The notes beneath the pieces are model-generated. The model ran no database searches. It saw nothing but the letters and a program-made list of their open reading frames with translations, and was not told where the DNA came from. A stretch of DNA of 64,000 bases from an uncultured Lachnospiraceae bacterium (GTDB lineage Bacteria; Bacillota; Clostridia; Lachnospirales; Lachnospiraceae): assembly GCA_946616365.1 (NCBI GenBank), contig CAMOIX010000004.1:17555-81554 (forward strand). Direction: 5' to 3'. Position 1 is the stretch's first letter, and every line of letters starts with the position of its first letter. This document shows, one piece after another, positions 20,632-50,685 of this stretch. The position numbers were made by a program, and so were the translations under genes.

Positions 20632-22887
20632 ATGGATGCATCAAAGGGACTTAGCAGAGACAGATTAAAGATTATCGCGATCATCGCCATGGTAATAGAT
20701 CATTTCGCATGGGGATTCGTCGACTTCCATACACCGCTCGGACAGGTGCTTCACATCATTGGCAGACTGACATTGCCGATCATGTGCTTCTTTATCGCCG
20801 AAGGTTTCAGAAAAACATCCGATCTTAAGAGATATATTCACAGAATGATAGGATTCTCCGTTGTTTCAGCCCTGCCTTTCTGGTATTTCTTCAAAGAACA
20901 GTACGGGTACAGGCAGAATGTCATATTCGACCTTACGCTCGGACTGATCATGCTCGCGGTACTCGAACATAAGGAAATAAAAAAGCCCGCCAAGGTCGTT
21001 CTCGCTGCAGTTATCTTTGCACTGTCGATCGTACTCGGAGGATGGCCCATCACCCCGATCCTCTTTATACTCAGCTTTTACTATGGGCAGACATTCGCCC
21101 GGAAGGCAATGTGGTTCATCATATCCGATGTGGCCACGATAGCATCCCTTGCCGTATTCATTTATTTAAACGGCATATATCATTTCATGCCCGGAATTGA
21201 TTCCTGGGTATGGCAGGATAAACTCTATTTCCTTGGATTCATCCTGGCGCTTCCTCTTCTTAAGAAATACAACGGAATCAGGGGAAGGAATGTCGGAGGG
21301 AGATTCTTCTTCTATGTATTCTATCCTGCACATTTTATTCTTCTCACTATGCTCAGATACTTCGCATTCGGGAATGTGTCACCTTATAAGGTATATCTCG
21401 GAGTGCATATCATATGCTTCATCATAGTTCTTGTCATCATGTTCCTCACTGCCATGGCGAGGAATTCCAAGGGACAGTCATCCGTTCTTATCATTACATT
21501 TGGCGGTATGATCTATGTGGCCGGATTCATACTTGAGGTCATGGCCAATACGGTCGAGGGCGTACATTTTGCCTGCATCGTACAGTATTTCGGTGAGTAT
21601 ACATTCTTCATAGCATTTATGTATTTCGTCAGCATCTTGTGTAATAAGAGAGCGCCTCTTTTTGTATATGTATTTCTTACAGTCGTGTCCCTTGTATTTT
21701 TGCACAGCCTCATGCATACATTGGAAACGGGCAATTTCTACAGAGAACTGGGCGTGGATCTGACCGGCGCCGTGAGCAGGACTGTCATAGTCTATGGTCC
21801 GATGTTTTATATTTCCATGGGCTTTCTCATATCGATGTCGATCGTCGCAGCGGTATTCTGCGTCATAGGATATTACAGCGGCAATGATGTGGAGAAGACG
21901 AGACTGATGTATGTCTTTACCGCGCTTGTCTTTGCATGGACTCCGTACTTTCTGACCAGAGTAGGACTGACGGGAGGATATGAGATCCCAGCACTCGGTG
22001 TGGCAGGAGGCGGCGTATGTATGTACCTGTGCCTGATGAGACACGGTTTCCTCGATTCCGTCACCCTTGCAAGTATCAATGCTCTCGATCATGGACGCGA
22101 AGGAATCCTCGTTGTCGACAATTTCTATAAGGTGCAGTACAGAAACAGCCGTATGACAGAGATATTCGGAGAGCTTCCCATAGGCTCGAGCGTCAGGGAC
22201 AATGCTACGATCATGGCTCTCTTTGACGGCAAGATCAAGAAGGATGAGATAGACCATCGTATATATGATTTCGCATGCGATTCACTTTTTGAAGGCGGAT
22301 TCGAGAGAGGCTTCATGCTCTGGGCTATAGACTCGACAGATCATTATGTCGCTATGGAGAAGATCCGCGAAGTAGCAACCAGAGATCCTCTTACAGGACT
22401 CTACAACAGAAATCAGTTCCAGAATAAGGTTGAAGAGCATTTAAAGAGTGGTCATCGCGGAACCATGGTCATGATAGACATGGATAATTTCAAGCGCGTC
22501 AATGATGAGAACGGACATCAGACCGGAGACGCGGTACTCAATACCCTCGCAGGTATCCTGATGGCTATGCCGGACAGCGTCATGATATGCGGAAGGATCG
22601 GAGGAGACGAGTTCTGCGGATTCATCCGCGGATGGGAAACCGATGAGAGAGTAGGCTCGATCCTCTCCGATATAATGAGAGACTTCGCGAGAGCGCTCGA
22701 TAAACAGGGCCGTGCGGGCATTACATCGCTTTCCATAGGAGCCGTTCCCGCATCCAAGGTAGAGAATCACGATTTCAAGACGCTGTATGCGATGGCGGAT
22801 AGAGTCCTGTACGAAGCCAAGACTTCCGGTAAAGGAAAGTACGTCATATACGATCCTGCAAGGTCTGCATCACAGGAGAGCAAGTGA
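20632..22887 (+). CDS. TraX-like acyltransferase domain / 7-TM / PAS-like / GGDEF diguanylate cyclase fusion
   Basis: 751 aa. Residues 1-245 have the TraX signature LKIIAIIAMVIDHFAW plus 6-7 TM helices. Residues 250-470 add about 7 more TM helices. A PAS-like segment follows (GREGILVVDNFYKVQYRN). The C-terminus has RDPLTGLYNRNQF and an intact RIGGDEFCGF active site. Confidence 0.85.
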   Translation: MDASKGLSRDRLKIIAIIAMVIDHFAWGFVDFHTPLGQVLHIIGRLTLPIMCFFIAEGFRKTSDLKRYIHRMIGFSVVSALPFWYFFKEQYGYRQNVIFDLTLGLIMLAVLEHKEIKKPAKVVLAAVIFALSIVLGGWPITPILFILSFYYGQTFARKAMWFIISDVATIASLAVFIYLNGIYHFMPGIDSWVWQDKLYFLGFILALPLLKKYNGIRGRNVGGRFFFYVFYPAHFILLTMLRYFAFGNVSPYKVYLGVHIICFIIVLVIMFLTAMARNSKGQSSVLIITFGGMIYVAGFILEVMANTVEGVHFACIVQYFGEYTFFIAFMYFVSILCNKRAPLFVYVFLTVVSLVFLHSLMHTLETGNFYRELGVDLTGAVSRTVIVYGPMFYISMGFLISMSIVAAVFCVIGYYSGNDVEKTRLMYVFTALVFAWTPYFLTRVGLTGGYEIPALGVAGGGVCMYLCLMRHGFLDSVTLASINALDHGREGILVVDNFYKVQYRNSRMTEIFGELPIGSSVRDNATIMALFDGKIKKDEIDHRIYDFACDSLFEGGFERGFMLWAIDSTDHYVAMEKIREVATRDPLTGLYNRNQFQNKVEEHLKSGHRGTMVMIDMDNFKRVNDENGHQTGDAVLNTLAGILMAMPDSVMICGRIGGDEFCGFIRGWETDERVGSILSDIMRDFARALDKQGRAGITSLSIGAVPASKVENHDFKTLYAMADRVLYEAKTSGKGKYVIYDPARSASQESK

Positions 22888-35539: not shown

Positions 35540-38500
35540 ATGAGCATAGTATATACCAGCGAAAAGTGTATAGGTTGCAATAAGTGCATCAAAGTATGCA
35601 GTGCTGTCGGTGCGTGCATTTCCGAGGAAAAAGACGGAAAGGCACGCATTATTGTAGACGGAGCTAAATGCGTAGCCTGCGGAAGCTGTATCGACGTATG
35701 CGCCCACGGAGCCAGAGAATTCGAGGACGATACCGGGAGATTCTTTGCAGACCTTAAGAAGGGCGAGAAGATATCGCTCCTTCTTGCACCTGCTTTCAAA
35801 GCAAACTATCCCGACGAGTACGAGAGCGTGCTCGGAGGATTAAAGCAGCTCGGAGTAAACCGCATCATAAGCGTGTCCTTCGGAGCTGATATAACGACCT
35901 GGGGCTATCTTAACTATATCAAAGAGCATGATTTCGTCGGAGGCATCTCGCAGCCCTGCCCCGCGCTCGTTTCATTTATCGAGAAATATATTCCCAAACT
36001 CATAGATAAGCTTTTCCCCGTGCAGAGTCCCCTTATGTGCGCAGCCATATATGCGAGAAAACAGATGGGGATCACGGACAAGTTTGCTTTTATCAGTCCT
36101 TGTATAGCAAAGAAAGTAGAGATAGATGATCCTCATAATGAAGGGCTCGTTCAGTACAATGTCACTTTTGAGCATCTCATGAAGTACATTCGTGATAATG
36201 ATATCAAAGGACCTTCCATACACAGTGAGATAGAGTACGGACTCGGATCCTTCTACCCTACGCCGGGCGGACTCGCAGAGAATGTCAGATGGTTCCTCGG
36301 AGACAGTGTATATATCAGACAGATAGAGGGTGAGAGACATCTCTACGAATGGCTCTATTCTAATGCGGACAGGATAAAGGATAACAAGACGCCTTTCCTC
36401 TTTATCGACGCGCTTAACTGCAAGAAGGGATGTATCTGCGGTACGGCGGTTAATCCCGATAAGGCAAAGACTGATGATGCGCTCTACGCGCTTCTCGATA
36501 TCAGAGAGAAATCCAAGAAGGCAGAGAAGGGCGATGCCTGGTCCAAGGCTGAGACACCCGAAGAGAGGCTCAGACTGTTTAACGAGCAGTTTGCTGACCT
36601 TGACCTGAATGATTATATCAGGGGATATACAGACAGATCCGCTGATTGTAAATTCAAGATACCTACCGAGGAAGAGTTCGACGAGATCTTTAAGAGCATG
36701 AACAAATTCACGGAGGAATCCAGAAATATCGACTGTACCTGCTGCGGATATGACCGCTGCAAGCACATGGCCCTCGCTATATACAATGGCTTCAACCATA
36801 AAGAGAACTGTATCTACTATGAGAAGACGATGGTACGTGAACTCGAAGTGGAGAAGGCTGTCGCAGAGGAAGCAAACCGTGCAAAGAGTTCTTTCCTTGC
36901 AAATATGAGCCACGAGATACGTACGCCTATCAATGCTGTCCTCGGTATGAACGAGATGATACTGCGTGAGAGCAATGAATCCGGCATCACATCGTATGCC
37001 GAATCGATAAGGAGTGCGGGCAATACGCTCCTCGGTCTGGTCAATAACATACTCGACTTCTCCAAGATAGAAGCCGGCAAGATGGATATCGTGGAGGTTA
37101 ATTACGACCTGTCCTCCGTCATCAACGATCTCGTCAATATGATCGCCATCAAAGCGCAGGATAAGGGCCTCGAGCTTGAGATGAGCTTTGATCAGCATAT
37201 TCCGAAGTCACTCTTCGGAGATGAGATCCGCATCAAGCAGATCATCACCAATATCCTTACGAATGCAGTCAAGTATACCGAGAAGGGTAAGGTTTCGTTT
37301 AATCTGGGATTTGAGAAGATTGAGTCGGATCCTGAACATATTGAGCTGAAGGTATCGGTAAAGGACACCGGTATAGGAATAAAGCAGGAAGATATCTCCA
37401 GACTCTTTGAGAAGTTTGACCGCATAGAGGAGGAGAGAAACAGAAATATCGAGGGTACCGGTCTCGGTATGAACATTACTCAGAGGCTTCTCGAGATGAT
37501 GGGATCGTCTCTGCAGGTGGAGAGTGTTTACGGCGAGGGTTCTACATTTAAGTTCTCTCTGAAGCAGAGAGTCGTCAAATGGGATGAACTCGGAGACTTC
37601 GAGTCCGCTTACAAGCAGTACGTCTCACAGAGAGAAAGTTATAAAGAGAAATTCACGGCACCTGAGGCGGAGGTTCTCGTCATCGATGATAACCCGATGA
37701 ACCTTATGGTATTTAAGAGTCTCCTCAAGCAGACGCTGATCAAGGTCGATGCGGCCAATGACGGATACGAGGGACTTGAATTCGCACAGAAAAAGAAATA
37801 TGACATCATATTCTTTGATCATATGATGCCCGGTATGGATGGTATAGAGACTCTGCACAGGATGCGCGCGGAAGACGGCCCCAATAAGGGTACTGTCTCC
37901 GTATGCCTCACGGCCAATGCAATATCCGGAGCGAGAGAGGAATACATCAAAGCGGGATTTGACGATTATCTCACCAAGCCCGTAGATCCTCCCAAGATAG
38001 AGAGCATGCTCGTCATGTATCTCCCGAAGGATAAGGTCATCATAACCACCGACACCGGAGAGGACAGCGCTGAAGATGAGAAGTATCCCGAGTATCTTGA
38101 GATGCTTGGCAAGTTCCCCGGTATAGATCTGAAGACCGGAATAAGCATCAGCGGCGGAGTGGATGAGTATGTATCCGTGCTCAAGATATTCGATGAATTC
38201 TTTGATGATAAGTATAACGAACTTCAGGGATTCTACGATACCGATGATATAACCGACTACACGATCAAGGTCCATGCCATGAAGAGCTCTCTCAAGATCA
38301 TCGGTGCAGGCAGATTTGCAGAGAAGGCACAGGCTCTTGAGAACGCGGGTAAGAGCGGAGATATTGCCTATATCAAAGAAAATCATGCTCCTTTCATGGA
38401 TGAACTGAAGACATACAAGAACCCCGTATCGGAAGCGCTGGCTGCGGAAGCGGAAGCGAATGCACCTGCACCTCCGGAGGCAGAATCCATCGATCTCGAG

Positions 38501-38686
38501 TGGATGGATGAGATCTACGGAGAGATGAAGGATGCGGCACAGTGCAAGGAGATGAACCGTATCACGAGCATCCTTGATGAACTTCGCGATTTCGATGTCC
38601 CGGCCGGAGAACGCGAGAAACTCGACCAGATAGAAAACTGCGCAGAGGCAGGAGATTTCGAAGCAATATTGGCAGTGATAGGATAA
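35540..38686 (+). CDS. hybrid histidine kinase with ferredoxin + [FeFe]-hydrogenase-like + FeS-motif sensor, REC and Hpt
   Basis: 1048 aa. 2x[4Fe-4S] motifs (CIGCNKCIKVC; CVACGSCIDVC). Fe_hyd_lg_C-like region with SQPCP (C140), SPCIAKKVE (C188) and NCKKGCICG (C294/C298/C300). DCTCCGYDRCKHMALAIYNG...C (399-424). H-box FLANMSHEIRTPINAVLGMNEMIL, HATPase, REC (VLVIDDNPMN...FFDHMMPGMDG) and Hpt (VHAMKSSLKIIG). Confidence 0.88.
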   Translation: MSIVYTSEKCIGCNKCIKVCSAVGACISEEKDGKARIIVDGAKCVACGSCIDVCAHGAREFEDDTGRFFADLKKGEKISLLLAPAFKANYPDEYESVLGGLKQLGVNRIISVSFGADITTWGYLNYIKEHDFVGGISQPCPALVSFIEKYIPKLIDKLFPVQSPLMCAAIYARKQMGITDKFAFISPCIAKKVEIDDPHNEGLVQYNVTFEHLMKYIRDNDIKGPSIHSEIEYGLGSFYPTPGGLAENVRWFLGDSVYIRQIEGERHLYEWLYSNADRIKDNKTPFLFIDALNCKKGCICGTAVNPDKAKTDDALYALLDIREKSKKAEKGDAWSKAETPEERLRLFNEQFADLDLNDYIRGYTDRSADCKFKIPTEEEFDEIFKSMNKFTEESRNIDCTCCGYDRCKHMALAIYNGFNHKENCIYYEKTMVRELEVEKAVAEEANRAKSSFLANMSHEIRTPINAVLGMNEMILRESNESGITSYAESIRSAGNTLLGLVNNILDFSKIEAGKMDIVEVNYDLSSVINDLVNMIAIKAQDKGLELEMSFDQHIPKSLFGDEIRIKQIITNILTNAVKYTEKGKVSFNLGFEKIESDPEHIELKVSVKDTGIGIKQEDISRLFEKFDRIEEERNRNIEGTGLGMNITQRLLEMMGSSLQVESVYGEGSTFKFSLKQRVVKWDELGDFESAYKQYVSQRESYKEKFTAPEAEVLVIDDNPMNLMVFKSLLKQTLIKVDAANDGYEGLEFAQKKKYDIIFFDHMMPGMDGIETLHRMRAEDGPNKGTVSVCLTANAISGAREEYIKAGFDDYLTKPVDPPKIESMLVMYLPKDKVIITTDTGEDSAEDEKYPEYLEMLGKFPGIDLKTGISISGGVDEYVSVLKIFDEFFDDKYNELQGFYDTDDITDYTIKVHAMKSSLKIIGAGRFAEKAQALENAGKSGDIAYIKENHAPFMDELKTYKNPVSEALAAEAEANAPAPPEAESIDLEWMDEIYGEMKDAAQCKEMNRITSILDELRDFDVPAGEREKLDQIENCAEAGDFEAILAVIG

Positions 38687-38783: not shown

Positions 38784-41261
38784 TTAGTTAACCTTCTTTA
38801 CCAATGCCATCTCCATTATCTTATCGCACAGATCGCCGAAGCTCCTGCCGTCCGCTTTTGCGGAGAGGACAAGGTGGGAGTCGGGATAGAGCTGAGGGAG
38901 TGAGTCACACTCCAAGCATACGAATTCTTTGAGGTCCTTGTCGACCATGAAATCCATCTTAGCATATGCATTAACGCCGAGGGCAAAGGCAGCGTCCTCG
39001 GCTGCTTTCATTAATCTCTTTGAGAGTTCTTCGGGGATATCTGCGGGGCACTTGGTAGCCTGCTCTCCGGTCAGAGTCATGCCCTTTTCTTTATCCTTGG
39101 TCTCGAGGGGAAGCTTTTCAAGTACGGGGAGAGCTTTGCCTCCTACGGTACATACAGCGAATTCGCGTCCTGCGAAGTATTCCTCGACGAGTACTTCGGT
39201 ATCCCATCTGAAAGCATTGTTCACAGCCTGACGGTAAGCGGCCGGGTCGCCTGCTACGCTTATTCCGAGTCCTATACCACCGTTATTGGGCTTAACGATC
39301 ACAGGATAGCTAAGTCCCTTTTCTGTAGGATCGGGGATAGGAGCGCCCTTTCTGATGCAGTATCCGTCGGGGACGGGTACGCCGGCGTCGGTCATTACGA
39401 GCTTAGCCGATATCTTGTTGGAAGTGATAGCGGATGAGAATGAGTCGCATCCGGTGTAGTCTATTCCAAGCAGGTCTAATGCAGCCTGTACCTTACCGTT
39501 CTCGCCGTTAGCTCCGTGAAGAGCAACGAAGACGAGATCGGCCTGTTTGCATATCTGGAGTACATTGGGACCGAAGTAAGAGTCGGACTGGTCCGTACGG
39601 CGCTTTCTCGTAGCCCAGAGATCGGGAATCTCATCGGGGATATCCTTGGGAGCGAGAGAGTACTTAACAGGATCCTTAAATACATCGGGCAGGAGTTCCT
39701 CGGTTTCTCCGTATCCGAAGAATACATCGAGAAGTACGACATTGTTGCCACGGTTTCTGAGGACCTCCGCAACAGTGACACCGGTCTTTAATGAGAGGTT
39801 TCTCTCGTTGGAAAGACCTCCTGCGAGAACGACTATGTTGAGATTGCCGGGAAGTATGAATTCCCTGAGTTCGTCATCACTTATATATTCGTCCTTAACG
39901 ATGAGGTCGGAACCGTCCATATTGAGCTCCAGAGTGCCGAGCATCTCACGGGTGAGGGATGCGATCTGGAGTATACGCTGTATCTGATCAGGCTTTAAGT
40001 CGACATCATACTTCTTCTTGACGAAAGCCTGGATGCGCCTGGTGATGGGCTTATTTACATGCACGATAAGGAAGTTCGTCACGCCGAGGAGTGCGTTAAG
40101 CTTCTTGGAGTTGACGAGATCGTCGAGCATATCTATTACTTTTAATATCTCGCCCGCGCGGAATGCAGTCATGATGGACTTGAGCGAATCGAGGAGATTC
40201 GGATTCTGACGCGAGTAGAGTATGCAGTACGCGAGGAGATATGCAACATTGTCGGAGTACTTGGGATCTCCGATCATATCGCAGAGGAATGCTATGAATT
40301 CCGATATATCGCAGCCGCTTCCGAGAGAGAATGCCTTCTCTACGAGCATACCTACGAGACGGTTGGTCTCGGATTTTTCTTTTTCACTGACAGCAGAGCG
40401 GATCATACTGTTGATGAACTGATCGAGGATCTGCATCTCAGGACGCTGGCCGGCGGGATTTACACGGATGTTGTACTCGCCGTTCTCTCCGAAGTCAAAG
40501 AATGTATTGGGAGCATGGCTCTCGGAGAATCCGAATTTACCGTAGTCATATCCGATGTAGTATGTCTTCTCGCCGATATCGTTCATGAGGATATTGACGT
40601 AATCGTAGTCGATATTGTGATTCTCGATGACCTTCTGACGGTCGATGATACGGCGCTTATAGTGCTCGATGAATTTATCGGAGAATCCCTGACCGTCAAA
40701 GGATACGCAGCGGTCGGGAGTATCGTTCAGGATGGTGACATATTTTGCTTTGTTGCCGCCCTTGGAGTGACCGATGACTGTGACGAAATACTTGTTTAAA
40801 CCAAGCTGATCATAGGCTCTCTTGTACCACTCGAGTGCATTGATCTGCTGGAGTGAATCTATCTGATTGGCACCTTCGAAGTCGTCGGTCCATTCGTTGT
40901 CCGCAGTTCCGCGGTAAGCAACCACCGCTTCGTGCTTTCCGTTCTCGTCGGGCTCGCCGGCATCGTTCTTTATGACAATAGAGATACCGCCGCCGGCACC
41001 GTATGCCGTATCGAGGTGAGCCTCTGCGATAAGCGAGTTTGAGATAGCCGGGTTTTTCAGGATGGCGAGGATGACATTACGGAAATCGAATCCGTTCATC
41101 TGCGTTGTGTATGTGCGCTCATTATCGAGAGCATCCAAATCTATCGCACCCAGGTATTCGCCGACGGTCTTTCCCTCTGCATGAAGGATAGATACGAGCG
41201 GAGCCATATCCGGCATATATGTGAGGTGTTCTATAAGCAGCAGTTCGTCGGTACGGTACAT
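38784..41261 (-). CDS. fusion protein: DUF2974/Mbeg1-like serine hydrolase + helical linker + D-alanine--D-alanine ligase-like ATP-grasp
   Basis: 825 aa. Residues ~100-260 carry VVAYRGTADNEW...VIGHSKGGNKAKY (GHSKGG nucleophile elbow, Ser166). Residues ~473-825 carry VVLAGGLSNERNLSLKTG, VALHGANGENGKVQAALDLLGIDYTG, YPVIVKPNNGG, VLVEEYFAGREF and MDFMVD...LECDSLP. GGAGG Shine-Dalgarno lies 19 nt after the upstream stop. Confidence 0.85.
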   Translation of the reverse strand: MYRTDELLLIEHLTYMPDMAPLVSILHAEGKTVGEYLGAIDLDALDNERTYTTQMNGFDFRNVILAILKNPAISNSLIAEAHLDTAYGAGGGISIVIKNDAGEPDENGKHEAVVAYRGTADNEWTDDFEGANQIDSLQQINALEWYKRAYDQLGLNKYFVTVIGHSKGGNKAKYVTILNDTPDRCVSFDGQGFSDKFIEHYKRRIIDRQKVIENHNIDYDYVNILMNDIGEKTYYIGYDYGKFGFSESHAPNTFFDFGENGEYNIRVNPAGQRPEMQILDQFINSMIRSAVSEKEKSETNRLVGMLVEKAFSLGSGCDISEFIAFLCDMIGDPKYSDNVAYLLAYCILYSRQNPNLLDSLKSIMTAFRAGEILKVIDMLDDLVNSKKLNALLGVTNFLIVHVNKPITRRIQAFVKKKYDVDLKPDQIQRILQIASLTREMLGTLELNMDGSDLIVKDEYISDDELREFILPGNLNIVVLAGGLSNERNLSLKTGVTVAEVLRNRGNNVVLLDVFFGYGETEELLPDVFKDPVKYSLAPKDIPDEIPDLWATRKRRTDQSDSYFGPNVLQICKQADLVFVALHGANGENGKVQAALDLLGIDYTGCDSFSSAITSNKISAKLVMTDAGVPVPDGYCIRKGAPIPDPTEKGLSYPVIVKPNNGGIGLGISVAGDPAAYRQAVNNAFRWDTEVLVEEYFAGREFAVCTVGGKALPVLEKLPLETKDKEKGMTLTGEQATKCPADIPEELSKRLMKAAEDAAFALGVNAYAKMDFMVDKDLKEFVCLECDSLPQLYPDSHLVLSAKADGRSFGDLCDKIMEMALVKKVN

Positions 41262-43136: not shown

Positions 43137-46100
43137 ATGTCGCAGAGCATCACGGCTGATAACGGAAAGAAAAAGAAACTTCTGATCATCATTCTGGGAG
43201 TGTTACTTCTCATAGGTATCATCATAGGTATCATAATCTACACAAATGCGATAACCGCAATAACGATGCGTATCCAGAGGCTCGTCGGAACGGTCAATCT
43301 CTACAACGATGACAAGGAAGTAGAGCTCAGGGAAAAGATGAAGCTTGGCGCCGGACAGACTGTAACGACGGCGGGAGAGAGCCTCATCATGGTTTCGCTC
43401 GACGATACGAAGCTTATGACGATGGAGGAGAGCAGCCGCGCGGATATCAAGGCGAGAGGAAAGAAGCTCGAATTCGACCTCATAGACGGGAATCTCTTTT
43501 TCAATGTAACCAAGAAGCTTGGAAAGAAGGAAAGCTTTGAAGTATGCACATCTACCATGGTCTGCGGTATCCGCGGAACCAGTGCATATGTCGGAAAGGA
43601 CTCGACTCGCCATGAGACTCTCATGGTTACGGACGGTATAGTCCATGTGCTCGCGACCAACCCCAGGACGCTCGAGACGACGGAAGTGGATGTATATGCC
43701 GGAGAGATGATCACGATATATCTCGATGAAGAGGCTGAAGGTGACAAGACCATATCCATCGTTAAGAGAAAGTTCAGGGAAGAGGATCTTCCTTCACTTG
43801 CTCTCGATGCGATACGTAAGAGTCCGGAACTGCAAAAGAGGATCGCTGATGCAACGGGATTTAGTGTGGAGAGACTTACGGCCCTGGCAGATGCTACGAG
43901 TAGGGACGGTATCTCGATGTACGGAAGCGCAGCGGACAAGCTCAGCGCAGACGGTATCAAAGATGCGATCCCCATCATGGGAACCAAGGCTCACATCATG
44001 GTAAGCACTGCCAATAATGCGGCAGATACCGCAGGCGAGAACCTTCCCCTTGAGATAGCGATAATAAAGGGGCTTAACGGCACTATGAATGCAGGTGCCG
44101 ATGCGGGATACGGCGATGAGCAGCTCAGTGCGATGGTTGAGAGTTCTTCGGGATGTGTCGACAAATGTATATCTGACGCGCGTGATGCCGGACTCTCTGA
44201 TGAGGAACTTGTAACGGTGGCAAACAGCATCATCGGAGCGCTTCAGTCTTCTGTCGGCGAGATGGCAAAGGCGGACCTTACCACATCCGAGATCGGTCAG
44301 GTAGTTGATGCGATAGAGATCGTATATACGGATGCCATTAAAGATACCGTAGCGGCTGCTTCGGGAACCAATACGGGCGCTAATGCAGGTGCAGGTACGG
44401 AGACCGGTTCGGGCGATGGAACAAGCGCGGGCTCAGGTGAAGATCAGGTAGCGCCGGCACCGTCTTTATCAAGTGCGGGAATACTTGAGGCTGTAAGGAA
44501 TGCCTCTGATTATATCACGAGTACCGTGGACAGTGAGATGATAAAGAAGTCCACGGGAGAGCAGACAGCTGAGGAACTTCTGAGAAAGAGACCTCAGACT
44601 GCGAGCGGAAATGACGGTAACGTCAATGGCGCGGGAAATGATGGTGCTACGACCGGAAACGGTACAGGTAACGGAACCGGCGATGCAAACGGTGGCAACG
44701 GGAATGGTAATGGCGCAGGCGGAAACGGAAATGCAGGGACTGCGGCTGGTGCAGCTAATGCAGGCACAGGTGCTGCAGCTACAGGAACCGGTGCAGGCGC
44801 TACAGGTGCCGGGGATCAGAGTAATTCATCCGGAGACGGTGGAAGCACATCGAGCAACTCATCGAGCAACACGCCGGCAGATACCACGCAGAGAGCAGTT
44901 TCTATCGCAGGCAATATTTCGGGCGGAACCGTAACGGCTTCGAGGACCACTGCAGCTCAGGGTCAGACAGTCACTCTTACTGCTACTCCCGACCAGGGTA
45001 ATGTATTACGGCAGATCACGGTAAATAAGCTTGATGCGAGTGGAAATGTCACCGGCACAGTATCTCTTACCGAAGTAAGTGCGGGCAGCAGCTATTCATT
45101 CAGCATGCCTGCTAATGAAGTTGCGGTAGATGCTGCTTTTGCTCCGTCAATCAGCGGAACACTTTCTATCACGGGTAATACTATAGTCGATTCGGTACTT
45201 ACCGCAACAGTTACCGGAGGATCCAATACGGGTACGCTCAGCTATGTGTGGAAGAGGGGCGGAACTGTTATAGCAGGTGCGACAAGCAGTACATATACGC
45301 TGGTTGCGGCCGATAAGAATAATATCATTTCATGCGAAGTTGTAAGTTCTGTGGAAGCAGGAAAGCTGACAGCTCAGACTGCATCCGCTGTTCAGCCACA
45401 TACATTTGAGGTGACAACGTTATACACTTCCTCAAGAGGAAATGTGGTGACCAAGCTGGGTGATACCGCGGCAACCCGATTTGAAGCAGGAGCGACGGTC
45501 AGAGTATATGTTACCTGCACGGAAGGCTGGGAGGAGCAGAGACCTACCACCGACCAGACCGGTACGACTGTATGGTATGATGCGAACGGTGGATATTACT
45601 ACTTTACGATGCCTGATCCTTCGCCCAATACGCTCGTGTCTCTTGGCGTTACCTTCACTGCGAAGTCGTATGCTGTAACACTGAATGCAGCAGGCGGAAC
45701 GATAAATGCGGGCAATGTCACGACATATACGTACGGAACCGGTGCAACCTTGCCTACAAATGTTACGAAAGCGGACGATGCAACCTTCAGTTACACATTC
45801 GCCGGCTGGTTTGATGCGGCTACGGGCGGAAATCAGGTTACATCGATATCCACTACAGATACCGGAGCGAAGACATTATATGCTCATTGGACAGCAACAC
45901 CCCTGACTACAACGCATACGCTTGATCTCCGGATTGGTATCTGGAATGGTGATATGAATTTGATGCCAATAGTGTATATGGGAATACCATTTGTAACTAT
46001 GACCGATGCGAACGGAAACACCATATTGAGTGGCGGGGATGTACCTGTGGGCGCGGTTGTTACGATTACATATGATCTCTCTGTAGTTAATACCGCTACT

Positions 46101-47810
46101 GCACAGACCACCATAAGTTATGATTCCTGCTGGGTTAATTACGGAAGTGCGCATACTTCGCTAAATTCTTCAGATATTACTACCGGGACCAATTCCGTAT
46201 CATTCGCAATGCCGGATGGCGATGCGGAGGTTGATCTGATATTCCTTGAGGCAGCATCGACAACAGTCACGTACCCTATCAGTACCGTATTTCAGAGAGG
46301 AAATATTATCGCAGTACCGGATCCTTCACAGGGCTTTGGCTCATCGCTTATTAACGAGGAATCAAGCGTGGACGGTATCACGGTTTCCGTAAAGATAAAC
46401 GGTACAACGCCTACGGGAGTTCAGGTGGCTGCTGAGGAAAATGATGCTGTCGAGATCACAATATCATCGGATGAATTGAATATTAATCTGCTTCAATGCT
46501 GGAAACCGGGATCTGCTGGAGGAAAGACCAGTATGGGAGCCCCGCCGCAGCAGCTGACATCTGCGACAGTGACTAATATTTCGGCAAAGTCGAAAAAGAT
46601 ATCATTTACGATGCCGGCTTATGGAGTGGTGATCTATACCGCTTACTCAGGTACAGGATATGCAATATCCTGTGAGCCCGCTCTCGGCGGAACGGTCACT
46701 GCGACACCTTCCGCTCCTTCACAGTATATCTCTAATGTGGCAGCAGGTAATCTCGTAACGATAACGGGTAACCCGGATCAGAACTTTGCACTTGCATCCG
46801 TCGAAGTATTTGATTCGTCGAACAGCAGTGTTACTGTAAGCAACGTTGTATCCAATACCGCCACATTTACGATGCCTTCATCGCCGGTGGTTGTTGTACC
46901 GACATTTACAGTTCCCGGGCCCAATGCGGAGATAACTTTGGATACGGATGAAGTTGATGATATGATGTCACTTCTTGCCCTGCCTGGAGTTTCGAAACTG
47001 ACAATTACGTATACGGCGGGTGACATAGATATATCTTCCGGATCTGATCTTCATATCCCTGCAGGAAAGACATTGGAGATTGCATCAGGTGTTACTCTTT
47101 ATGATAACGGTGGAGTATTTACCAATGATGGAACTATGATCATTGATGCAGGCGGAGCTTTTGAAAACCATAGGCTTATCAGAAATGACGGAACAATTGT
47201 CAATAATGGTACATATACTATCGGTGATTCGTGGGGAGGCGTGCTGTATAATTATGGAACGTTTACAAACAATGCGGATGTTACATACATGCAGACATCT
47301 AATCATGTAGACTGCTTTATGGTTAATTACGGCACTGTGGATGGTAGCGCTGCAAGTGATGTGTATCCCAGACAGCCGAATACAGTGCTTGAGGGATATG
47401 ATGATTCGGGATCGAGCTGGCAGCTTACATGTGGAGGTATTCTTTCAATCTCAAGTGATAATGCGTGGAGCGGTAACAGCTGGCAGTGGAACCCGAGAAA
47501 TACAAATGGGGGAAACAGAGAGAAGTACGGACCGTTTACAAGAGGCGTTGTTATAAATGATGGAGTCACATATATCGGCCAGGGAGCATTCCAGGGTGAC
47601 ACGAGATTGGAGTATATCGTTATACCCACGAGTGTAACTTCTATAGAAGAATACGCTTTCGCGGGAGCAAGTAAACTGACGGATATATATTATGCCGGAA
47701 CTCAGGAACAGTGGGCTACTGTGATAGCAAATACTGACTTTAGCAATGCCGGAAATGGTGCGCTGAGTCGAGATACAGTAACTGTTCACTATAACAGTAC
47801 CGGACCCTGA
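43137..47810 (+). CDS. giant membrane-anchored surface protein: FecR domain, G/N/A/T low-complexity spacer, Ig-like/Listeria-Bacteroides repeats, BspA-type LRR C-terminus
   Basis: 1557 aa. N-terminal TM KKLLIIILGVLLLIGIIIGIIIY. FecR-like VGTVNLYNDDKEVELREKMKLGAGQTVTTAGESLIMVSLDD. GNG/GAG-rich region. Flg_new-type repeat SYAVTLNAAGGTINAG...YTFAGWFDAATGGNQV...LYAHWT. LRR_5-like IGQGAFQGDTRLEYIVIPTSVTSIEEYAFAGASKLTDIYYAGTQEQW. Confidence 0.85.
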   Translation: MSQSITADNGKKKKLLIIILGVLLLIGIIIGIIIYTNAITAITMRIQRLVGTVNLYNDDKEVELREKMKLGAGQTVTTAGESLIMVSLDDTKLMTMEESSRADIKARGKKLEFDLIDGNLFFNVTKKLGKKESFEVCTSTMVCGIRGTSAYVGKDSTRHETLMVTDGIVHVLATNPRTLETTEVDVYAGEMITIYLDEEAEGDKTISIVKRKFREEDLPSLALDAIRKSPELQKRIADATGFSVERLTALADATSRDGISMYGSAADKLSADGIKDAIPIMGTKAHIMVSTANNAADTAGENLPLEIAIIKGLNGTMNAGADAGYGDEQLSAMVESSSGCVDKCISDARDAGLSDEELVTVANSIIGALQSSVGEMAKADLTTSEIGQVVDAIEIVYTDAIKDTVAAASGTNTGANAGAGTETGSGDGTSAGSGEDQVAPAPSLSSAGILEAVRNASDYITSTVDSEMIKKSTGEQTAEELLRKRPQTASGNDGNVNGAGNDGATTGNGTGNGTGDANGGNGNGNGAGGNGNAGTAAGAANAGTGAAATGTGAGATGAGDQSNSSGDGGSTSSNSSSNTPADTTQRAVSIAGNISGGTVTASRTTAAQGQTVTLTATPDQGNVLRQITVNKLDASGNVTGTVSLTEVSAGSSYSFSMPANEVAVDAAFAPSISGTLSITGNTIVDSVLTATVTGGSNTGTLSYVWKRGGTVIAGATSSTYTLVAADKNNIISCEVVSSVEAGKLTAQTASAVQPHTFEVTTLYTSSRGNVVTKLGDTAATRFEAGATVRVYVTCTEGWEEQRPTTDQTGTTVWYDANGGYYYFTMPDPSPNTLVSLGVTFTAKSYAVTLNAAGGTINAGNVTTYTYGTGATLPTNVTKADDATFSYTFAGWFDAATGGNQVTSISTTDTGAKTLYAHWTATPLTTTHTLDLRIGIWNGDMNLMPIVYMGIPFVTMTDANGNTILSGGDVPVGAVVTITYDLSVVNTATAQTTISYDSCWVNYGSAHTSLNSSDITTGTNSVSFAMPDGDAEVDLIFLEAASTTVTYPISTVFQRGNIIAVPDPSQGFGSSLINEESSVDGITVSVKINGTTPTGVQVAAEENDAVEITISSDELNINLLQCWKPGSAGGKTSMGAPPQQLTSATVTNISAKSKKISFTMPAYGVVIYTAYSGTGYAISCEPALGGTVTATPSAPSQYISNVAAGNLVTITGNPDQNFALASVEVFDSSNSSVTVSNVVSNTATFTMPSSPVVVVPTFTVPGPNAEITLDTDEVDDMMSLLALPGVSKLTITYTAGDIDISSGSDLHIPAGKTLEIASGVTLYDNGGVFTNDGTMIIDAGGAFENHRLIRNDGTIVNNGTYTIGDSWGGVLYNYGTFTNNADVTYMQTSNHVDCFMVNYGTVDGSAASDVYPRQPNTVLEGYDDSGSSWQLTCGGILSISSDNAWSGNSWQWNPRNTNGGNREKYGPFTRGVVINDGVTYIGQGAFQGDTRLEYIVIPTSVTSIEEYAFAGASKLTDIYYAGTQEQWATVIANTDFSNAGNGALSRDTVTVHYNSTGP

Positions 47811-48114: not shown

Positions 48115-50685
48115 TTATTTTTTCGCCAACTCTCTGCTGATGAGGAGGATTACATCCTGATACATGCCGCGCATGGTCTCGTGCTCTGCTTCGATGGCGG
48201 ATTCGTCACCTGCATCGGCAGCTTTTTCAAGTCTTGCTGCGATCTCGGAGAGTTTGGTCGCACCGACCATCTTGGATGTGCTCTTGAGTGAATGTACGAA
48301 GACACCGTAATTATGCCAGTCTCTTGCGGCATAGCTTTCGTCTATAGCTTCTGATTTTTTCTTGGATTCGCGAAGGTAGCCGGAGAGGATCTCGGCATAA
48401 AGCTCCGCATCGCCTTCGCAGTAAGTCATACCGGTCTCTTTGTCTATGATATCGGGTTTATCGAATGAAGGCCCCGTCTCTTCGGAGTGGACTTTTGTGC
48501 TTTCATCGGATGTATATATCACCTTAGATGCGGGGAGATACTTGATCAGGAGCTCCTCGAGCCTGCCGCTGTCAATAGGCTTGGAGAGGTAATCATTGAA
48601 GCCCTCGTTTAAGTATCTGTCCTCGGCACCGGATACGGCATCGGCTGTCAGAGCTATGAAAGGTGTGGTCTTGTTGATGGACTCGGGGTCTTTCTTTATC
48701 CTGTTCATAGCGGTGGTGCCGTCCATCTCGGGCATGCGCTGATCCATGAGTATAAGATCATAGGTCTTGATCTTACACATCTCAATGGAATGCAGACCGC
48801 TGGTTGCGGTATCGATATTTATCATCGTATTCTTAAGGAGTCCCTTGGCTACGACGAGGTTGGTCATGGTATCATCGACTATGAGTATGAGAGCATCCTT
48901 GGCATGGAAAGGTTCCTTCTTGGCGTGGAGAGCCTTGATACTCTTTTCGAATTTGTCACGGAAGTCTCCGATGGGCTCGTTGGAGAGTTTCTTTTGAGGA
49001 ATGGTTACTGTAAATACAGAGCCTAATCCGTACTGGGACTGTACATCTATCTTTCCGCCCATCATCTCAAGCAGGCTGACTGTGATCGCCAGACCAAGTC
49101 CCGTGCCTTCGATAGTGCTGTTCTTCTCGAGGTCTATTCTCTGGAATTTCTTGAAGAGCTTTTCCTTATCCTCATCCTTTATACCCATACCGGTGTCTTT
49201 GACGGAGATAACGAGTGCAAACTCCGGCTCGCCATCCGCCTTGTCCAGCATAGTTTTTTTGACATAGAGGACGATGCTGCCCTTCTGGGTGTACTTGACT
49301 GCGTTGTTTAATATATTGGTGATGATCTGGCGGACTCTTACTTCGTCGCCCATAAGCAGGTCGGGCACGGTGCTGTCCACGTCCACATCGAACTTAAGAC
49401 CCTTTGATTCCGCTTTGAAGGAGATCATGTTGCTGACGTCGTTGAGCACGGAACTTAAGCGGTATTCCTTGTTTACGAGCTCCATCTTGCCGGACTCTAT
49501 CTTGGAGAAGTCGAGTATGTCGTTAATGATCGAGAGGAGATTCTTTCCGGCACTGTCGATATTTCCGGCATAGTTGCATATCTCAGAGAATACGTCCCTG
49601 ATCTCGGATTTATTGGATGGTGTATTATCCCTCGCCTTAAGGCTCTCCCTGAAGATGATCTCGTTCATGCCGAGTACGGCATTGATGGGAGTCCTGATCT
49701 CGTGCGACATATTGGCGAGGAAGTCACTCTTGGCGGCATTTGATCTCTCTGCGAGCTCCTTTGCCTTTTCCATTTCCTCATTCTCGAGCTGCTTCTGCTC
49801 GGAACTAACGATGAGGAGCATGGTAACGGTGAAGGATATGATGACGAATGAAATGACAAAGAGCATAACAGCGATGACGCTGTAGGGATCGGCTTCGCCG
49901 ACTTCGCCGATGCTGGCAGCCAGAGTATCGCGCATCCAGAAAGCGAGGAAGAATCCGCCGACGCAGAAGACGATAACGATGGCAACATAGACGGGCCTGA
50001 ATATCCTGATCAGACGGCTCCTCTTTGAGTGGTCAAACTTGGTGATCTCATCATCGTATTCCTTAACGACAAGGAGCGGGATGAAGACAAAGAAAAGCGA
50101 AGCGAGGATGCTGAAGGGGTAATAGGGATCAACCCAGTCTGACGGCCAGTCGAAGCAGGATGCCACCCAAGTGATCATCTCAAAGATGATATAGAGCATG
50201 AAGCCTATGTTTATATAAGGGAACTTGGCTCCTTTATCACGATATTTCCTGTAATTGGCGATGGCATTGATAGAGAGACTCAAAGTAAGAGTAGCCCAGA
50301 ATACCTGCCATATATTGTTGAATATGCCTCCGAACTGAAGGTACAGAGCAAGCTGTGCAATGCCGAAAGGTATGGGGATGAGTGAGAGGGGAGAGAATCT
50401 CTTTACCCCGTGATCGCGCATCATGTTTAATTGGATATGTGCCGGCATCACGAAAGCAAGGTTCCAACCGATATAAGCGAAGAAGGATGAGAGATTGGGA
50501 TCTTCACCCATAACCAGGGCATATACGGCCCAGTAGTAATTGGAAAGCAGATATCCCAATAGGAATATTGCCAAATATGTAAGAGTTTTGCGGGCTTTTT
50601 TGAAATATCCGAACAGACACAGGAGCAGGCCTCCGATATTAAGGAGGATCGAGAGGATATTGACCAGGTTATCGAGATTTATCAT
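48115..50685 (-). CDS. hybrid sensor histidine kinase/response regulator with Hpt (polytopic N-terminal sensor)
   Basis: Start moved to ATG 50685 (MINLDNLVNILS...) because the track extension overlaps tRNA-Leu. About 9 TM helices, H-box FLANMSHEIRTPINAVLGMNEIIF, HATPase (GTGLGLAITVS), REC (ILIVDDTMTN...LMDQRMPEMDG) and Hpt (VHSLKSTSKMVG). Confidence 0.88.
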   Translation of the reverse strand: MINLDNLVNILSILLNIGGLLLCLFGYFKKARKTLTYLAIFLLGYLLSNYYWAVYALVMGEDPNLSSFFAYIGWNLAFVMPAHIQLNMMRDHGVKRFSPLSLIPIPFGIAQLALYLQFGGIFNNIWQVFWATLTLSLSINAIANYRKYRDKGAKFPYINIGFMLYIIFEMITWVASCFDWPSDWVDPYYPFSILASLFFVFIPLLVVKEYDDEITKFDHSKRSRLIRIFRPVYVAIVIVFCVGGFFLAFWMRDTLAASIGEVGEADPYSVIAVMLFVISFVIISFTVTMLLIVSSEQKQLENEEMEKAKELAERSNAAKSDFLANMSHEIRTPINAVLGMNEIIFRESLKARDNTPSNKSEIRDVFSEICNYAGNIDSAGKNLLSIINDILDFSKIESGKMELVNKEYRLSSVLNDVSNMISFKAESKGLKFDVDVDSTVPDLLMGDEVRVRQIITNILNNAVKYTQKGSIVLYVKKTMLDKADGEPEFALVISVKDTGMGIKDEDKEKLFKKFQRIDLEKNSTIEGTGLGLAITVSLLEMMGGKIDVQSQYGLGSVFTVTIPQKKLSNEPIGDFRDKFEKSIKALHAKKEPFHAKDALILIVDDTMTNLVVAKGLLKNTMINIDTATSGLHSIEMCKIKTYDLILMDQRMPEMDGTTAMNRIKKDPESINKTTPFIALTADAVSGAEDRYLNEGFNDYLSKPIDSGRLEELLIKYLPASKVIYTSDESTKVHSEETGPSFDKPDIIDKETGMTYCEGDAELYAEILSGYLRESKKKSEAIDESYAARDWHNYGVFVHSLKSTSKMVGATKLSEIAARLEKAADAGDESAIEAEHETMRGMYQDVILLISRELAKK

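What the first reader, a model, noticed from the sequence alone, without database searches (positions are those of the whole stretch)
35540..36811. Hybrid histidine kinase whose sensor is an [FeFe]-hydrogenase-like module lacking the proton-relay cysteine
The first ~330 residues align motif by motif with [FeFe]-hydrogenase: two ferredoxin CxxCxxCxxxC motifs, then H-domain signatures. P1 is SQPCP where the canonical motif is TSCCP, so the first Cys (the proton-transfer residue in catalytic enzymes) is Pro while the cluster-ligand Cys is kept. P2 is SPCIAKKVE, which fits MPCxxKxxE. P3 is NCKKGCICG, which fits CxxGCxxG. A further C-x-CC-G-x3-C-x15-C stretch (399-424) resembles the RnfB-type putative Fe-S domain. 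The output is HisKA-HATPase-REC-Hpt. Loss of the proton-relay Cys is the hallmark reported for sensory rather than catalytic hydrogenases. Hydrogenase classifications recognise putative kinase-linked sensory [FeFe] enzymes, but to my knowledge none has been characterised. In a fermentative gut or rumen anaerobe an H2- or redox-sensing phosphorelay would be physiologically central.
Basis: partly seen in the sequence, partly recalled or inferred. Interest (0 to 1): 0.65.

Follow-up and report, generated by a model that had tools for sequence, protein, structure and literature searches.

The report
Hydrogenase-like sensor fused to histidine kinase
A rumen Lachnospiraceae bacterium encodes a cytoplasmic hybrid histidine kinase whose input domain is a complete but non-catalytic-type [FeFe]-hydrogenase module. 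This belongs to a large, already recognised but biochemically untested class of putative H2 sensors, so it is a good test object rather than a new kind of system.

Summary
ORF 35540-38686 (+) encodes 1048 aa. Its parts are two ferredoxin-type [4Fe-4S] motifs, an [FeFe]-hydrogenase H-domain (Pfam E 2e-27), an exact Cx2Cx4Cx16C cluster motif (aa 399-424), then HisKA-HATPase-REC-Hpt. All four H-cluster cysteines and the 2Fe-pocket Lys and Glu are present. The Group A proton pathway is absent: C299 is Pro, E279-E282 are deleted, R286 is Tyr and S319 is Phe.

An AlphaFold model (pLDDT 93.9) matches only [FeFe]-hydrogenases in the PDB. It shows one continuous helix from cluster ligand C424 to phospho-acceptor His458.

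HydDB has listed "histidine kinase-linked" and "chemotactic" Group C [FeFe]-hydrogenases since 2016. The module has over 3000 representative relatives. It is fused interchangeably to kinase, chemoreceptor, GGDEF, HD-GYP, phosphatase, STAS and PAS outputs. Orthologous kinase fusions occur in more than 20 rumen Lachnospiraceae species, some of them cultured.

New details found here:
- A family-wide Pro/Ser/Leu pocket that no characterised enzyme has.
- Conservation of three acidic residues of the Group D alternative proton path.
- No genomic linkage to catalytic hydrogenases.
- Embedding in multi-kinase clusters in relatives.

H2 responsiveness and HydEFG presence remain untested.

The parts
35540..38686 (+). 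Whole gene: hybrid histidine kinase with an [FeFe]-hydrogenase-type sensor, 1048 aa, no predicted transmembrane segment
   Evidence: max Kyte-Doolittle 19-residue window 1.5; exact protein on record in GCA_002373595.1
35546..35713 (+). N-terminal 2x[4Fe-4S] ferredoxin-like domain (aa 3-58; CxxCxxCxxxC at 10-20 and 44-54)
   Evidence: all eight Cys invariant or >=90% conserved in 114 relatives
35780..36442 (+). H-domain (Pfam Fe_hyd_lg_C, aa 81-301)
   Evidence: E 2.3e-27; Foldseek top 50 PDB matches are all [FeFe]-hydrogenases
35948..35962 (+). P1 motif SQPCP (aa 137-141): P139 at the CpI C299 proton-relay position; C140 is the C300 ligand
   Evidence: Pro in 116/150 representatives, Cys in none
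36095..36121 (+). P2 motif SPCIAKKVE (aa 186-194): S186 = M353, C188 = C355, K191 = K358, E194 = E361
   Evidence: K in 141/150, E in 144/150
36407..36442 (+). P3 motif DALNCKKGCICG (aa 290-301): D290 = E495, L292 = M497, C294 = C499, C298 = the bridging C503
36734..36811 (+). C-terminal accessory [4Fe-4S] motif Cx2Cx4Cx16C (C399, C402, C407, C424)
   Evidence: all four Cys invariant; aligns colinearly with the TamHydS C-terminal cluster; motif defined in PMC8163306
36812..36910 (+). Signalling helix linking C424 to His458 (34 residues); part of the continuous helix 425-477 in the model
   Evidence: DSSP H425-477, pLDDT 82-97; 34-residue linker in 26/46 direct kinase fusions
36881..37078 (+). 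HisKA (DHp) domain, aa 448-513; phospho-acceptor His458 (nt 36911-36913)
37217..37567 (+). HATPase_c catalytic domain, aa 560-676 (G1 DTGIG at 609, G2 GTGLGM at 639)
37673..38008 (+). Receiver (REC) domain, aa 712-823 (DD716-717, phospho-acceptor D760, K813)
38186..38362 (+). Hpt domain, aa 883-941 (His912 in HAMKSSLKIIG)
   Evidence: weak, E 0.016; motif; paralogues in the window have significant Hpt hits
38417..38683 (+). Acidic C-terminal extension after Hpt (aa 960-1048), unassigned; shared with related hybrid kinases

Best explanation
The gene encodes a soluble hybrid sensor kinase whose input is a complete Group C-type (putatively sensory) [FeFe]-hydrogenase module. That module comprises two ferredoxin-type [4Fe-4S] clusters, an H-cluster-binding domain with a Pro/Ser/Leu pocket and no Group A proton pathway, and a C-terminal Cx2Cx4Cx16C [4Fe-4S] domain. 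Shown here: the architecture, positional equivalence of the ligands, the fold, family membership and portability of the module. Inferred mechanism: H2 binds and is slowly and reversibly split at the H-cluster. Protons may leave by the conserved acidic residues E247, D290 and E263, and electrons are parked on the N-terminal clusters. The resulting redox or conformational state passes through the C-terminal cluster domain, whose last ligand C424 caps the helix carrying His458. This changes the autokinase/phosphatase balance. Phosphate then moves from His458 to Asp760 to His912 and on to an unidentified response regulator. The kinase therefore reports the H2 partial pressure, or H2 poised against the ferredoxin pool, in the rumen. 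In related species it is one of several kinases in a multi-input phosphorelay.
For: Domain hits and motifs. HMMER alignment to solved hydrogenases with ligand equivalence. AF2 model with pLDDT 93.9 and pTM 0.85 and helix 425-477. Foldseek top 50 are all [FeFe]-hydrogenases, E about 1e-17. End-to-end colinear match to TamHydS, E 1e-29, including the C-terminal cluster. TamHydS and TmHydS, with similarly altered pockets, bind a genuine H-cluster and turn over H2 slowly (PMC8163306, PMC10055695). Ligand Cys, K358, E361, P231 and S323-P324 equivalents are >=90% conserved across 114-150 relatives, which argues for selection on a 2Fe-binding pocket. The same module (65-73% identical) is fused at a fixed junction (about aa 428) to MCP, GGDEF and kinase outputs, and also to HD-GYP, SpoIIE, STAS and PAS. 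That is the behaviour of a self-contained sensor domain. Linker C424-to-His is 34 aa in 26/46 direct fusions, with other discrete classes. E247, D290 and E263 match the TamHydS alternative proton path E252, E289 and D265 (PMC10407848). Group C genes are abundant and expressed in the rumen (PMC6776011). Near-identical fragments occur in a bovine metatranscriptome (weak).
Against: There is no direct evidence that this protein carries the 2Fe subcluster or responds to H2. HydE/F/G were not found in the 64-kb window, and the rest of the genome could not be searched. Pro at the C299 position has not been studied in any enzyme and might affect cofactor insertion. Unlike TmHydS, TamHydS and R. albus HydS, neither this gene nor 76 relatives in 80 loci lie within 10 kb of another hydrogenase gene, so the regulated target is unknown. 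In TamHydS the C-terminal cluster is not reduced by H2 (PMC13104023), so the transmission step is structural at best and remains speculative. The linker-length pattern rests on a small, partly orthologous sample. No model coordinates were available to measure distances.
Confidence: 0.6

Rival explanations
1. It is a redox sensor rather than an H2 sensor. The N-terminal ferredoxin-like clusters, with or without a 2Fe subcluster in the H-domain, equilibrate with the reduced-ferredoxin or NADH pool, and the kinase reports intracellular redox poise. H2 would be at most an indirect input.
For: Sixteen conserved cluster cysteines form a plausible electron wire. There is no genomic link to hydrogenase genes. 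In TamHydS, H2 reduces an N-terminal cluster, which shows these clusters are redox-active under physiological conditions (PMC13104023). HydEFG presence is unverified.
Against: A simple redox sensor would not need the residues that hold the 2Fe subcluster, yet K191, E194, A83-P84, S163-P164 and bridging C298 are conserved at >=90%. The closest characterised relatives bind a true H-cluster (PMC8163306, PMC10055695). With an H-cluster present, H2 and the redox pool are coupled anyway, so this rival partly merges with the main explanation.
Confidence: 0.2
2. It senses another small ligand of the H-cluster, such as CO or O2, rather than H2. Ligand binding or oxidative conversion of the 2Fe site would switch the kinase.
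For: H-clusters bind CO and react with O2. TamHydS forms a distinct stable O2 product (Hair) and is unusually CO-tolerant (PMC8163306), so altered pockets do change ligand reactivity. The Pro/Ser/Leu pocket is untested.
Against: No evidence here points to CO or O2. The rumen is H2-rich and strictly anoxic, and H2 is the natural substrate of the fold. Conserved acidic residues matching a proton path suit H2 heterolysis rather than CO binding.
Confidence: 0.08
3. The hydrogenase-like module is a degenerate structural scaffold holding Fe-S clusters only, with no signal-specific role, and the kinase is controlled by partner proteins.
For: The proton-relay Cys and the whole Group A proton pathway are lost. 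There are no maturase or hydrogenase neighbours.
Against: The pocket is under strong purifying selection in relatives down to 31% identity. The module is recruited repeatedly to at least eight different output types at one fixed junction, which is typical of an active input domain.
Confidence: 0.05

Closest known systems
HydDB [FeFe] Group C putative sensory hydrogenases, subclasses C1 'histidine kinase-linked' and C2 'chemotactic' (Sondergaard, Pedersen and Greening 2016, PMC5037454)
   Same: Hydrogenase H-domain with all cluster ligands, loss of the proton-relay Cys, small or hydroxyl residue at M353, and linkage to two-component or chemotaxis signalling. Pro at C299 is reported for about 10% of Group C and Ser at M353 for about 32% (PMC10055695). 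Relatives 65-70% identical are MCP fusions.
   Different: HydDB describes the subclasses as 'transcribed with' regulatory elements. Here the kinase is covalently fused with no PAS domain between. The HydDB classifier could not be run, so the C1 versus C2 call is not made.
TmHydS, Thermotoga maritima (Group C, M2f; Chongdar et al. 2018; PMC10055695)
   Same: 2x[4Fe-4S] N-terminus, H-domain lacking the Group A proton pathway, C-terminal Cx2Cx4Cx16C cluster and a presumed sensory role. PAS-bearing relatives of our module exist at 42% identity (P0164).
   Different: The TmHydS pocket is Ala/Gly/Ser at C299/M353/M497, whereas ours is Pro/Ser/Leu. TmHydS ends in a PAS domain and sits in a hydrogenase operon. 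Ours goes straight into a DHp helix and has no hydrogenase neighbour. No TmHydS sequence was available for a direct alignment.
TamHydS, Thermoanaerobacter mathranii (Group D, M2e; PMC8163306, PMC10407848, PMC13104023)
   Same: Colinear over the whole module (aa 2-438 against 6-418, E 1e-29). Same Ser at M353 and Leu at M497. The same Cx2Cx4Cx16C motif. Acidic residues at three of the four positions of its proposed alternative proton path.
   Different: Only 24% identical. TamHydS has Ala, not Pro, at C299. It has no fused output domain and lies next to a bifurcating hydrogenase. The S249 position is Pro in our family.
Regulatory [NiFe]-hydrogenase HoxBC with the HoxJ kinase (Group 2b; Lenz and Friedrich 1998, cited in PMC6776011)
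   Same: The logic is the same: a low-activity hydrogenase reports H2 to a histidine kinase.
   Different: It is an unrelated metallocentre and fold. Sensor and kinase are separate subunits. That system is experimentally proven and found in aerobic H2 oxidisers.

Membership tests
[FeFe]-hydrogenase H-domain superfamily (PF02906) | Significant match to the H-domain profile and fold | tested here: met
   Pfam 96.6 bits against a cutoff of 22.1; Foldseek top 50 are all [FeFe]-hydrogenases, with TM normalised to target up to 0.67
[FeFe]-hydrogenase H-domain superfamily (PF02906) | Four Cys ligands of the [4Fe-4S]H subcluster, including the bridging Cys (CpI C300, C355, C499, C503), at equivalent positions | tested here: met
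   C140, C188, C294 and C298 by HMMER alignment; invariant or 113/114 conserved in the family
[FeFe]-hydrogenase H-domain superfamily (PF02906) | Residues that hold the 2Fe subcluster (K358, E361, A230-P231, S323-P324) | tested here: met
   K191, E194, A83-P84 and S163-P164 are present and >=90% conserved
[FeFe]-hydrogenase H-domain superfamily (PF02906) | H-cluster actually assembled: HydE/F/G in the genome and spectroscopic signature | not testable with these tools
   No maturase in the 64-kb window; the rest of GCA_002373595.1 could not be searched; no wet-lab data
Prototypical catalytic Group A [FeFe]-hydrogenase | Proton-transfer pathway C299-E279-S319-E282-R286 | tested here: not met
   P139 at C299; E279-E282 fall in a 4-residue deletion; Y126 at R286; F159 at S319 (alignment to TmHydA; family counts). 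NCBIfam Group A and B models score far below their cutoffs
Group C/D putative sensory [FeFe]-hydrogenases (M2f/M2e) | N-terminal two [4Fe-4S] motifs plus a C-terminal Cx2Cx4Cx16C motif flanking the H-domain | tested here: met
   Exact motifs at aa 10-54 and 399-424; colinear with TamHydS; definition in PMC8163306
Group C/D putative sensory [FeFe]-hydrogenases (M2f/M2e) | C299 not Cys; M353 replaced by Gly, Ser or Thr; M497 variable | tested here: met
   Pro, Ser and Leu here; 101/150 representatives share this triad
Group C/D putative sensory [FeFe]-hydrogenases (M2f/M2e) | PAS domain after the C-terminal cluster (defines M2f / Group C in the strict sense) | tested here: not met
   No PAS hit. 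HisKA starts 24 residues after C424. Relatives with PAS exist (P0164, P0213, P0210)
Group C/D putative sensory [FeFe]-hydrogenases (M2f/M2e) | Encoded next to or with a catalytic hydrogenase operon | tested here: not met
   None in the window, and none within 10 kb in 80 relatives' loci
Group C/D putative sensory [FeFe]-hydrogenases (M2f/M2e) | Assignment by the HydDB classifier or a curated phylogeny | not testable with these tools
   HydDB and its reference set are not available here. Indirect evidence: the best characterised relative by sequence is TamHydS (107 bits), against 69 bits for the best solved Group A enzyme
Hybrid histidine kinase (HisKA-type phosphorelay) | H-box His in a DHp domain, N/G1/G2 boxes in the ATPase, and a receiver with acidic pocket, Asp and Lys | tested here: met
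   HEIRTP at 458, DTGIG at 609, GTGLGM at 639, DD at 716, D760, K813; Pfam E 1e-18 to 1e-25
Hybrid histidine kinase (HisKA-type phosphorelay) | C-terminal Hpt domain with a conserved His | tested here: inconclusive
   Pfam Hpt E 0.016, below the gathering score. The motif HAMKSSLKIIG at H912 resembles that of paralogues with significant Hpt hits

The most novel reading that the evidence does not exclude
The Pro/Ser/Leu-type hydrogenase module is a self-contained, PAS-independent converter of H2 into conformational change. It drives a kinase helix directly through its C-terminal [4Fe-4S] domain. The same module drives chemoreceptors, c-di-GMP enzymes and phosphatases in rumen and gut Lachnospiraceae. 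H2 would then act as a general behavioural and interspecies signal (motility, biofilm, gene expression) rather than only as a feedback regulator of hydrogenase operons. This fusion would give the first direct biochemical read-out (autophosphorylation) of [FeFe]-type H2 sensing.
Probability: 0.35. Interest if true: 0.7.

Novelty: new member of a known kind. Interest (0 to 1): 0.42.

Why it matters
Whether Group C/D [FeFe]-hydrogenases really sense H2, and how the signal leaves the protein, is still open. Only two members (TmHydS, TamHydS) have been characterised, neither with a measurable signalling output. The 2026 TamHydS study undermines the idea that signalling works through a redox change of the C-terminal cluster (PMC13104023). 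A direct fusion to a histidine kinase supplies an intrinsic assayable output, and cultured rumen strains carry orthologues. H2 partial pressure governs fermentation balance and methane yield in ruminants, so knowing how dominant fibre- and butyrate-associated Lachnospiraceae perceive H2 has applied relevance. For annotation, thousands of these proteins are currently named '4Fe-4S binding protein', 'transcriptional regulator' or 'diguanylate cyclase'.

Tried and rejected
1. Conserved operon partners from the window: carA/carB upstream and the Mbeg1-Ddl gene downstream are not syntenic with orthologues, so no functional link is inferred.

2. Search for maturases or hydrogenases in the window: none found. 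An H-domain HMM against 989 neighbouring ORFs of 80 loci found only family members.

3. The Greening et al. 2016 ISME J paper could not be retrieved, so the original definition of the Group C subclasses comes only from the HydDB paper.

It was replaced by local phmmer probes and a 10-protein Pfam scan.

5. Model coordinates are not exposed, so S-S distances at the cluster sites and the E247-to-pocket distance could not be measured.

6. The promoter/terminator scan was uninformative, with counts no higher than in shuffles.

7. Nar1-like grouping: no Nar1/NARFL reference was available to test directly. It was rejected indirectly, because the nearest characterised relative is a true hydrogenase and the pocket residues are conserved.

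8. A first mapping of pocket residues was off by one because hmmalign trimmed the initial Met. It was corrected.

9. The TamHydS reference was rebuilt by hand from an OCR-damaged coding sequence. It agrees with published numbering at 11 of 11 checkpoints, but residues at the repaired frameshifts are uncertain.
Full report
**1. What is in the sequence.**

The finding's span (35540-36811) is the first 424 codons of a 1048-codon ORF, 35540-38686 on the + strand. A Shine-Dalgarno-like AGGTGAGGA precedes it.

Pfam finds these domains:
- two 4Fe-4S ferredoxin motifs (aa 3-58)
- Fe_hyd_lg_C (aa 81-301, E 2.3e-27, 96.6 bits against a cutoff of 22.1)
- a weak 'FeS' PF04060 hit (aa 397-426, E 0.007)
- HisKA (448-513), HATPase_c (560-676) and Response_reg (712-823)
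- a weak Hpt (883-941, E 0.016)

The phosphorelay residues are all present: His458 (HEIRTP), G1 and G2 boxes, DD716-717, Asp760, Lys813 and His912 in HAMKSSLKIIG. No hydrophobic stretch is long enough for a membrane helix. The protein is therefore a soluble, cytoplasmic hybrid kinase.

**2. Is the sensor really hydrogenase-like, position by position?**

phmmer against all PDB sequences gives only [FeFe]-hydrogenases as strong hits: T. maritima HydA at 3e-18 and CpI at about 1e-13. The printed alignments put SQPCP on TSCCP, SPCIAKK on MPCTAKK/MPCIGKK, and NCKKGC on ACPGGC.

From that alignment, the Group A proton pathway maps as follows:
- C299 is P139.
- E279-E282 fall in a four-residue deletion.
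- R286 is Y126.
- S319 is F159.

The residues that hold the 2Fe subcluster are retained: K358 as K191, E361 as E194, A230-P231 as A83-P84, and S323-P324 as S163-P164.

An AlphaFold2 model of aa 1-530, built on a 114-sequence alignment, is very confident (mean pLDDT 93.9, pTM 0.85). Its 50 best Foldseek matches in the PDB are all [FeFe]-hydrogenases: DdH, CbA5H, CpI and the HydABC alpha subunits, at E about 1e-17 and with TM normalised to target up to 0.67. Coordinates were not exposed, so I could not measure the geometry of the cluster sites.

**3. Which hydrogenase group?**

The literature defines the putatively sensory Groups C (M2f) and D (M2e) by three features (PMC8163306). These are an N-terminal pair of [4Fe-4S] motifs, an H-domain lacking C299 and the rest of the Group A proton pathway, and a C-terminal Cx2Cx4Cx16C cluster. 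Group C additionally has a PAS domain. Our module has all three features.

I rebuilt the TamHydS protein from the OCR-damaged coding sequence in the supplement of PMC13104023. The reconstruction agrees with published residue numbers at 11 of 11 checkpoints. Our sensor aligns with it end to end (aa 2-438 against 6-418, 24% identity, 107 bits, E 1e-29), including the C-terminal cluster. That is a stronger match than to any solved Group A enzyme (69 bits).

NCBIfam has no model for this class. The Group B1 and Group A models match far below their cutoffs.

Among the 150 best cluster representatives, some have the classical HydS architecture of module plus PAS. One example is P0164, 567 aa and 42% identical. 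I therefore file the module under Group C in the broad HydDB sense.

The pocket is Pro/Ser/Leu at the C299/M353/M497 positions. By published description, TmHydS is Ala/Gly/Ser and TamHydS is Ala/Ser/Leu (PMC8163306, PMC10055695). The Pro/Ser/Leu triad is found in 101 of 150 representatives and in every output class, and none has Cys at the relay position. PMC10055695 reports Pro at this position in about 10% of HydDB Group C, so it is a known but uncharacterised state.

One further point was not in the finding. Three of the four residues of the alternative proton path proposed for TamHydS (E252, E289, D265) are conserved as acidic residues in our family:
- E247, Glu in 112/150
- D290, Asp in 138/150
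- E263, Glu in 115/150

PMC10407848 described that path as exclusive to Group D apart from E289. This rests on a 24%-identity alignment with a nearby two-residue indel, so it is a lead and not a result.

**4. How common is it, and is the kinase fusion unusual?**

A word-indexed search found 5984 relatives. The best 120, at 65-73% identity over the 440-aa module, are all GGDEF or MCP fusions from Oscillospiraceae or Lachnospiraceae MAGs. They carry names such as '4Fe-4S binding protein', 'transcriptional regulator' or 'diguanylate cyclase'.

The exhaustive search of 50%-identity representatives found 3371 clusters at E <= 0.001 and 715 at E <= 1e-30. Using local domain probes on the top 150:
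- 45 are kinase fusions, 14 of them with the full HisKA-HATPase-REC-Hpt set.
- 44 are MCP fusions.
- 31 are GGDEF fusions.
- 29 matched none of the probes.

A Pfam scan of ten of these 29 showed HD-GYP, GGDEF-EAL, SpoIIE phosphatase, STAS, PAS only, PAS-HisKA and PAS-SpoIIE-HATPase_c_2 outputs. The module has also been noted in sigma-54 enhancer-binding proteins of Clostridiales (PMC6615313).

In the multiple alignment, conservation runs to about residue 428, four residues past the last cluster Cys. The sequences then diverge into their different outputs. This is a portable input domain with a fixed junction.

In the GTDB species representatives, more than 585 stretches encode relatives. The best 80 loci are almost all rumen or gut Lachnospiraceae. 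Of 76 complete family ORFs in those loci, 22 are kinase fusions, and orthologues are 59-76% identical over the full length. The carriers include the cultured strains Lachnospiraceae bacterium AB2028 and P6B14.

The exact protein is on record only in assembly GCA_002373595.1, contig DFKT01000009.1. The kinase fusion is thus a well-populated architecture. It corresponds to what HydDB has called 'C1, histidine kinase-linked (putative)' since 2016.

**5. Context.**

In the window, the gene follows purL, carA and carB with a 48-bp gap and is followed by convergent genes. No hydrogenase, maturase or obvious cognate regulator occurs anywhere in the 64 kb. This synteny is not conserved in orthologues. 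The promoter and terminator scans are uninformative.

An H-domain HMM found no second hydrogenase-like ORF within 10 kb in any of the 80 loci, apart from one pair of tandem paralogues. This differs from TmHydS, TamHydS and R. albus HydS, which sit in hydrogenase operons (PMC8163306, PMC6776011).

In at least eight related species, the orthologue lies instead in a co-directional cluster. Its members are:
- a dCache-HK-REC-Hpt kinase whose core is 49-54% identical to ours
- a membrane HK-REC kinase
- a membrane HK-REC-DegV-Hpt kinase
- a Na:alanine symporter
- a 260-aa receiver-only protein

That arrangement suggests a multi-input phosphorelay in which the hydrogenase-kinase is one input.

The window itself holds two more paralogous hybrid kinases.

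A bovine gut metatranscriptome contains fragments at least 99% identical over the kinase half of the gene, at low depth. This is weak evidence of expression.

**6. Mechanism.**

Shown here: the architecture, ligand equivalence, the fold, family membership, the fixed junction, and a modelled continuous helix 425-477 that begins right after cluster ligand C424 and carries His458.

In 46 direct kinase fusions, the distance from the last Cys to the His is 34 residues in 26 cases. Otherwise it falls in discrete classes of 23, 31, 38, 42, 45, 55, 58 and 72-74. The 23/34/45 and 31/38/45 series fit a helical-register constraint. However, the sample is small and many of the 34-residue cases are orthologues.

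Inferred steps:
- H2 is bound and slowly split at the H-cluster.
- The proton leaves via the conserved acidic residues, and electrons reach the N-terminal clusters.
- The state change passes through the C-terminal cluster domain into the DHp helix and modulates autophosphorylation.
- Phosphate then passes from His458 to Asp760 to His912, and on to an unknown regulator.

The 2026 TamHydS work found that the C-terminal cluster is not reduced by H2 (PMC13104023). I therefore favour a structural rather than a redox role for that domain.

The main rival is a ferredoxin-pool or redox sensor. With an H-cluster present, the two readings overlap. CO or O2 sensing and a degenerate scaffold are less likely, for the reasons given under the rival explanations.

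**7. Novelty and verdict.**

The class is known and abundant, so this is a new member of a known kind.

What remains open for the whole class is whether, and how, H2 is transduced. A PAS-less direct fusion with cultured orthologues is a convenient system for testing that. I found no paper reporting such a test. Absence from this library is not proof of absence, because subscription journals are largely missing.

I score interest at 0.42. It is not surprising to a specialist, but it makes a long-standing question directly testable.

Noticed in passing
window 38784-41261 (-): An 825-aa protein fuses an N-terminal Mbeg1-like domain (PF11187) to a complete D-Ala-D-Ala ligase (Dala_Dala_lig_N and _C). 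This is an unusual architecture.
   Followed up: no
window 20632-22887 (+): A 751-aa protein combines TraX, a 7TM kinase-type sensor region (HisKA_7TM) and a GGDEF domain.
   Followed up: no
window 11650-14481 (-) and 48115-50685 (-): Two further hybrid kinases with the same HisKA-HATPase-REC-Hpt core lie in the window. Their cores are 38-41% identical to orthologues of the hydrogenase-kinase and to the dCache-kinase that neighbours it in relatives. This points to a lineage-specific expansion of the kinase core with swapped sensors.
   Followed up: partly
L011:15229-18675 (also L002, L007, L009, L010, L013, L016, L018): Next to the orthologous hydrogenase-kinase lies a membrane hybrid kinase with a DegV (fatty-acid-binding) domain inserted between REC and Hpt. 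The conserved cluster also holds a dCache kinase, a third kinase, a Na:alanine symporter and a 260-aa receiver-only protein.
   Followed up: partly
L019:7679-12163, L020:7676-12163 (strain P6B14), L006:7379-13162; protein P0124: In some relatives the dCache-HK-REC gene and the hydrogenase module form one ORF of about 1495 aa or more. In P0124 the layout is HisKA-HATPase-REC-[hydrogenase module]-DHp-like-Hpt, so the module sits between REC and Hpt. This could be a real fusion or a gene-call or assembly effect.
   Followed up: partly
L067:9980-11968 and 12009-13964: Two tandem paralogues of the hydrogenase-type sensor, 662 and 651 aa, sit side by side.
   Followed up: no
window 38417-38683 (aa 960-1048 of the kinase): An acidic extension of about 90 aa follows the Hpt domain. 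It has no Pfam match and resembles the C-terminus of the DegV-containing kinase of related species.
   Followed up: no
window 36969-37256: One DNA contig of run X3 skips 286 bases inside the HisKA/linker region. This may be a strain variant or an assembly artefact. Only a single contig shows it.
   Followed up: no
window 43137-47810 (+): A 1557-aa putative surface protein carries FecR, Listeria-Bacteroides repeat and BspA-type LRR domains.
   Followed up: no
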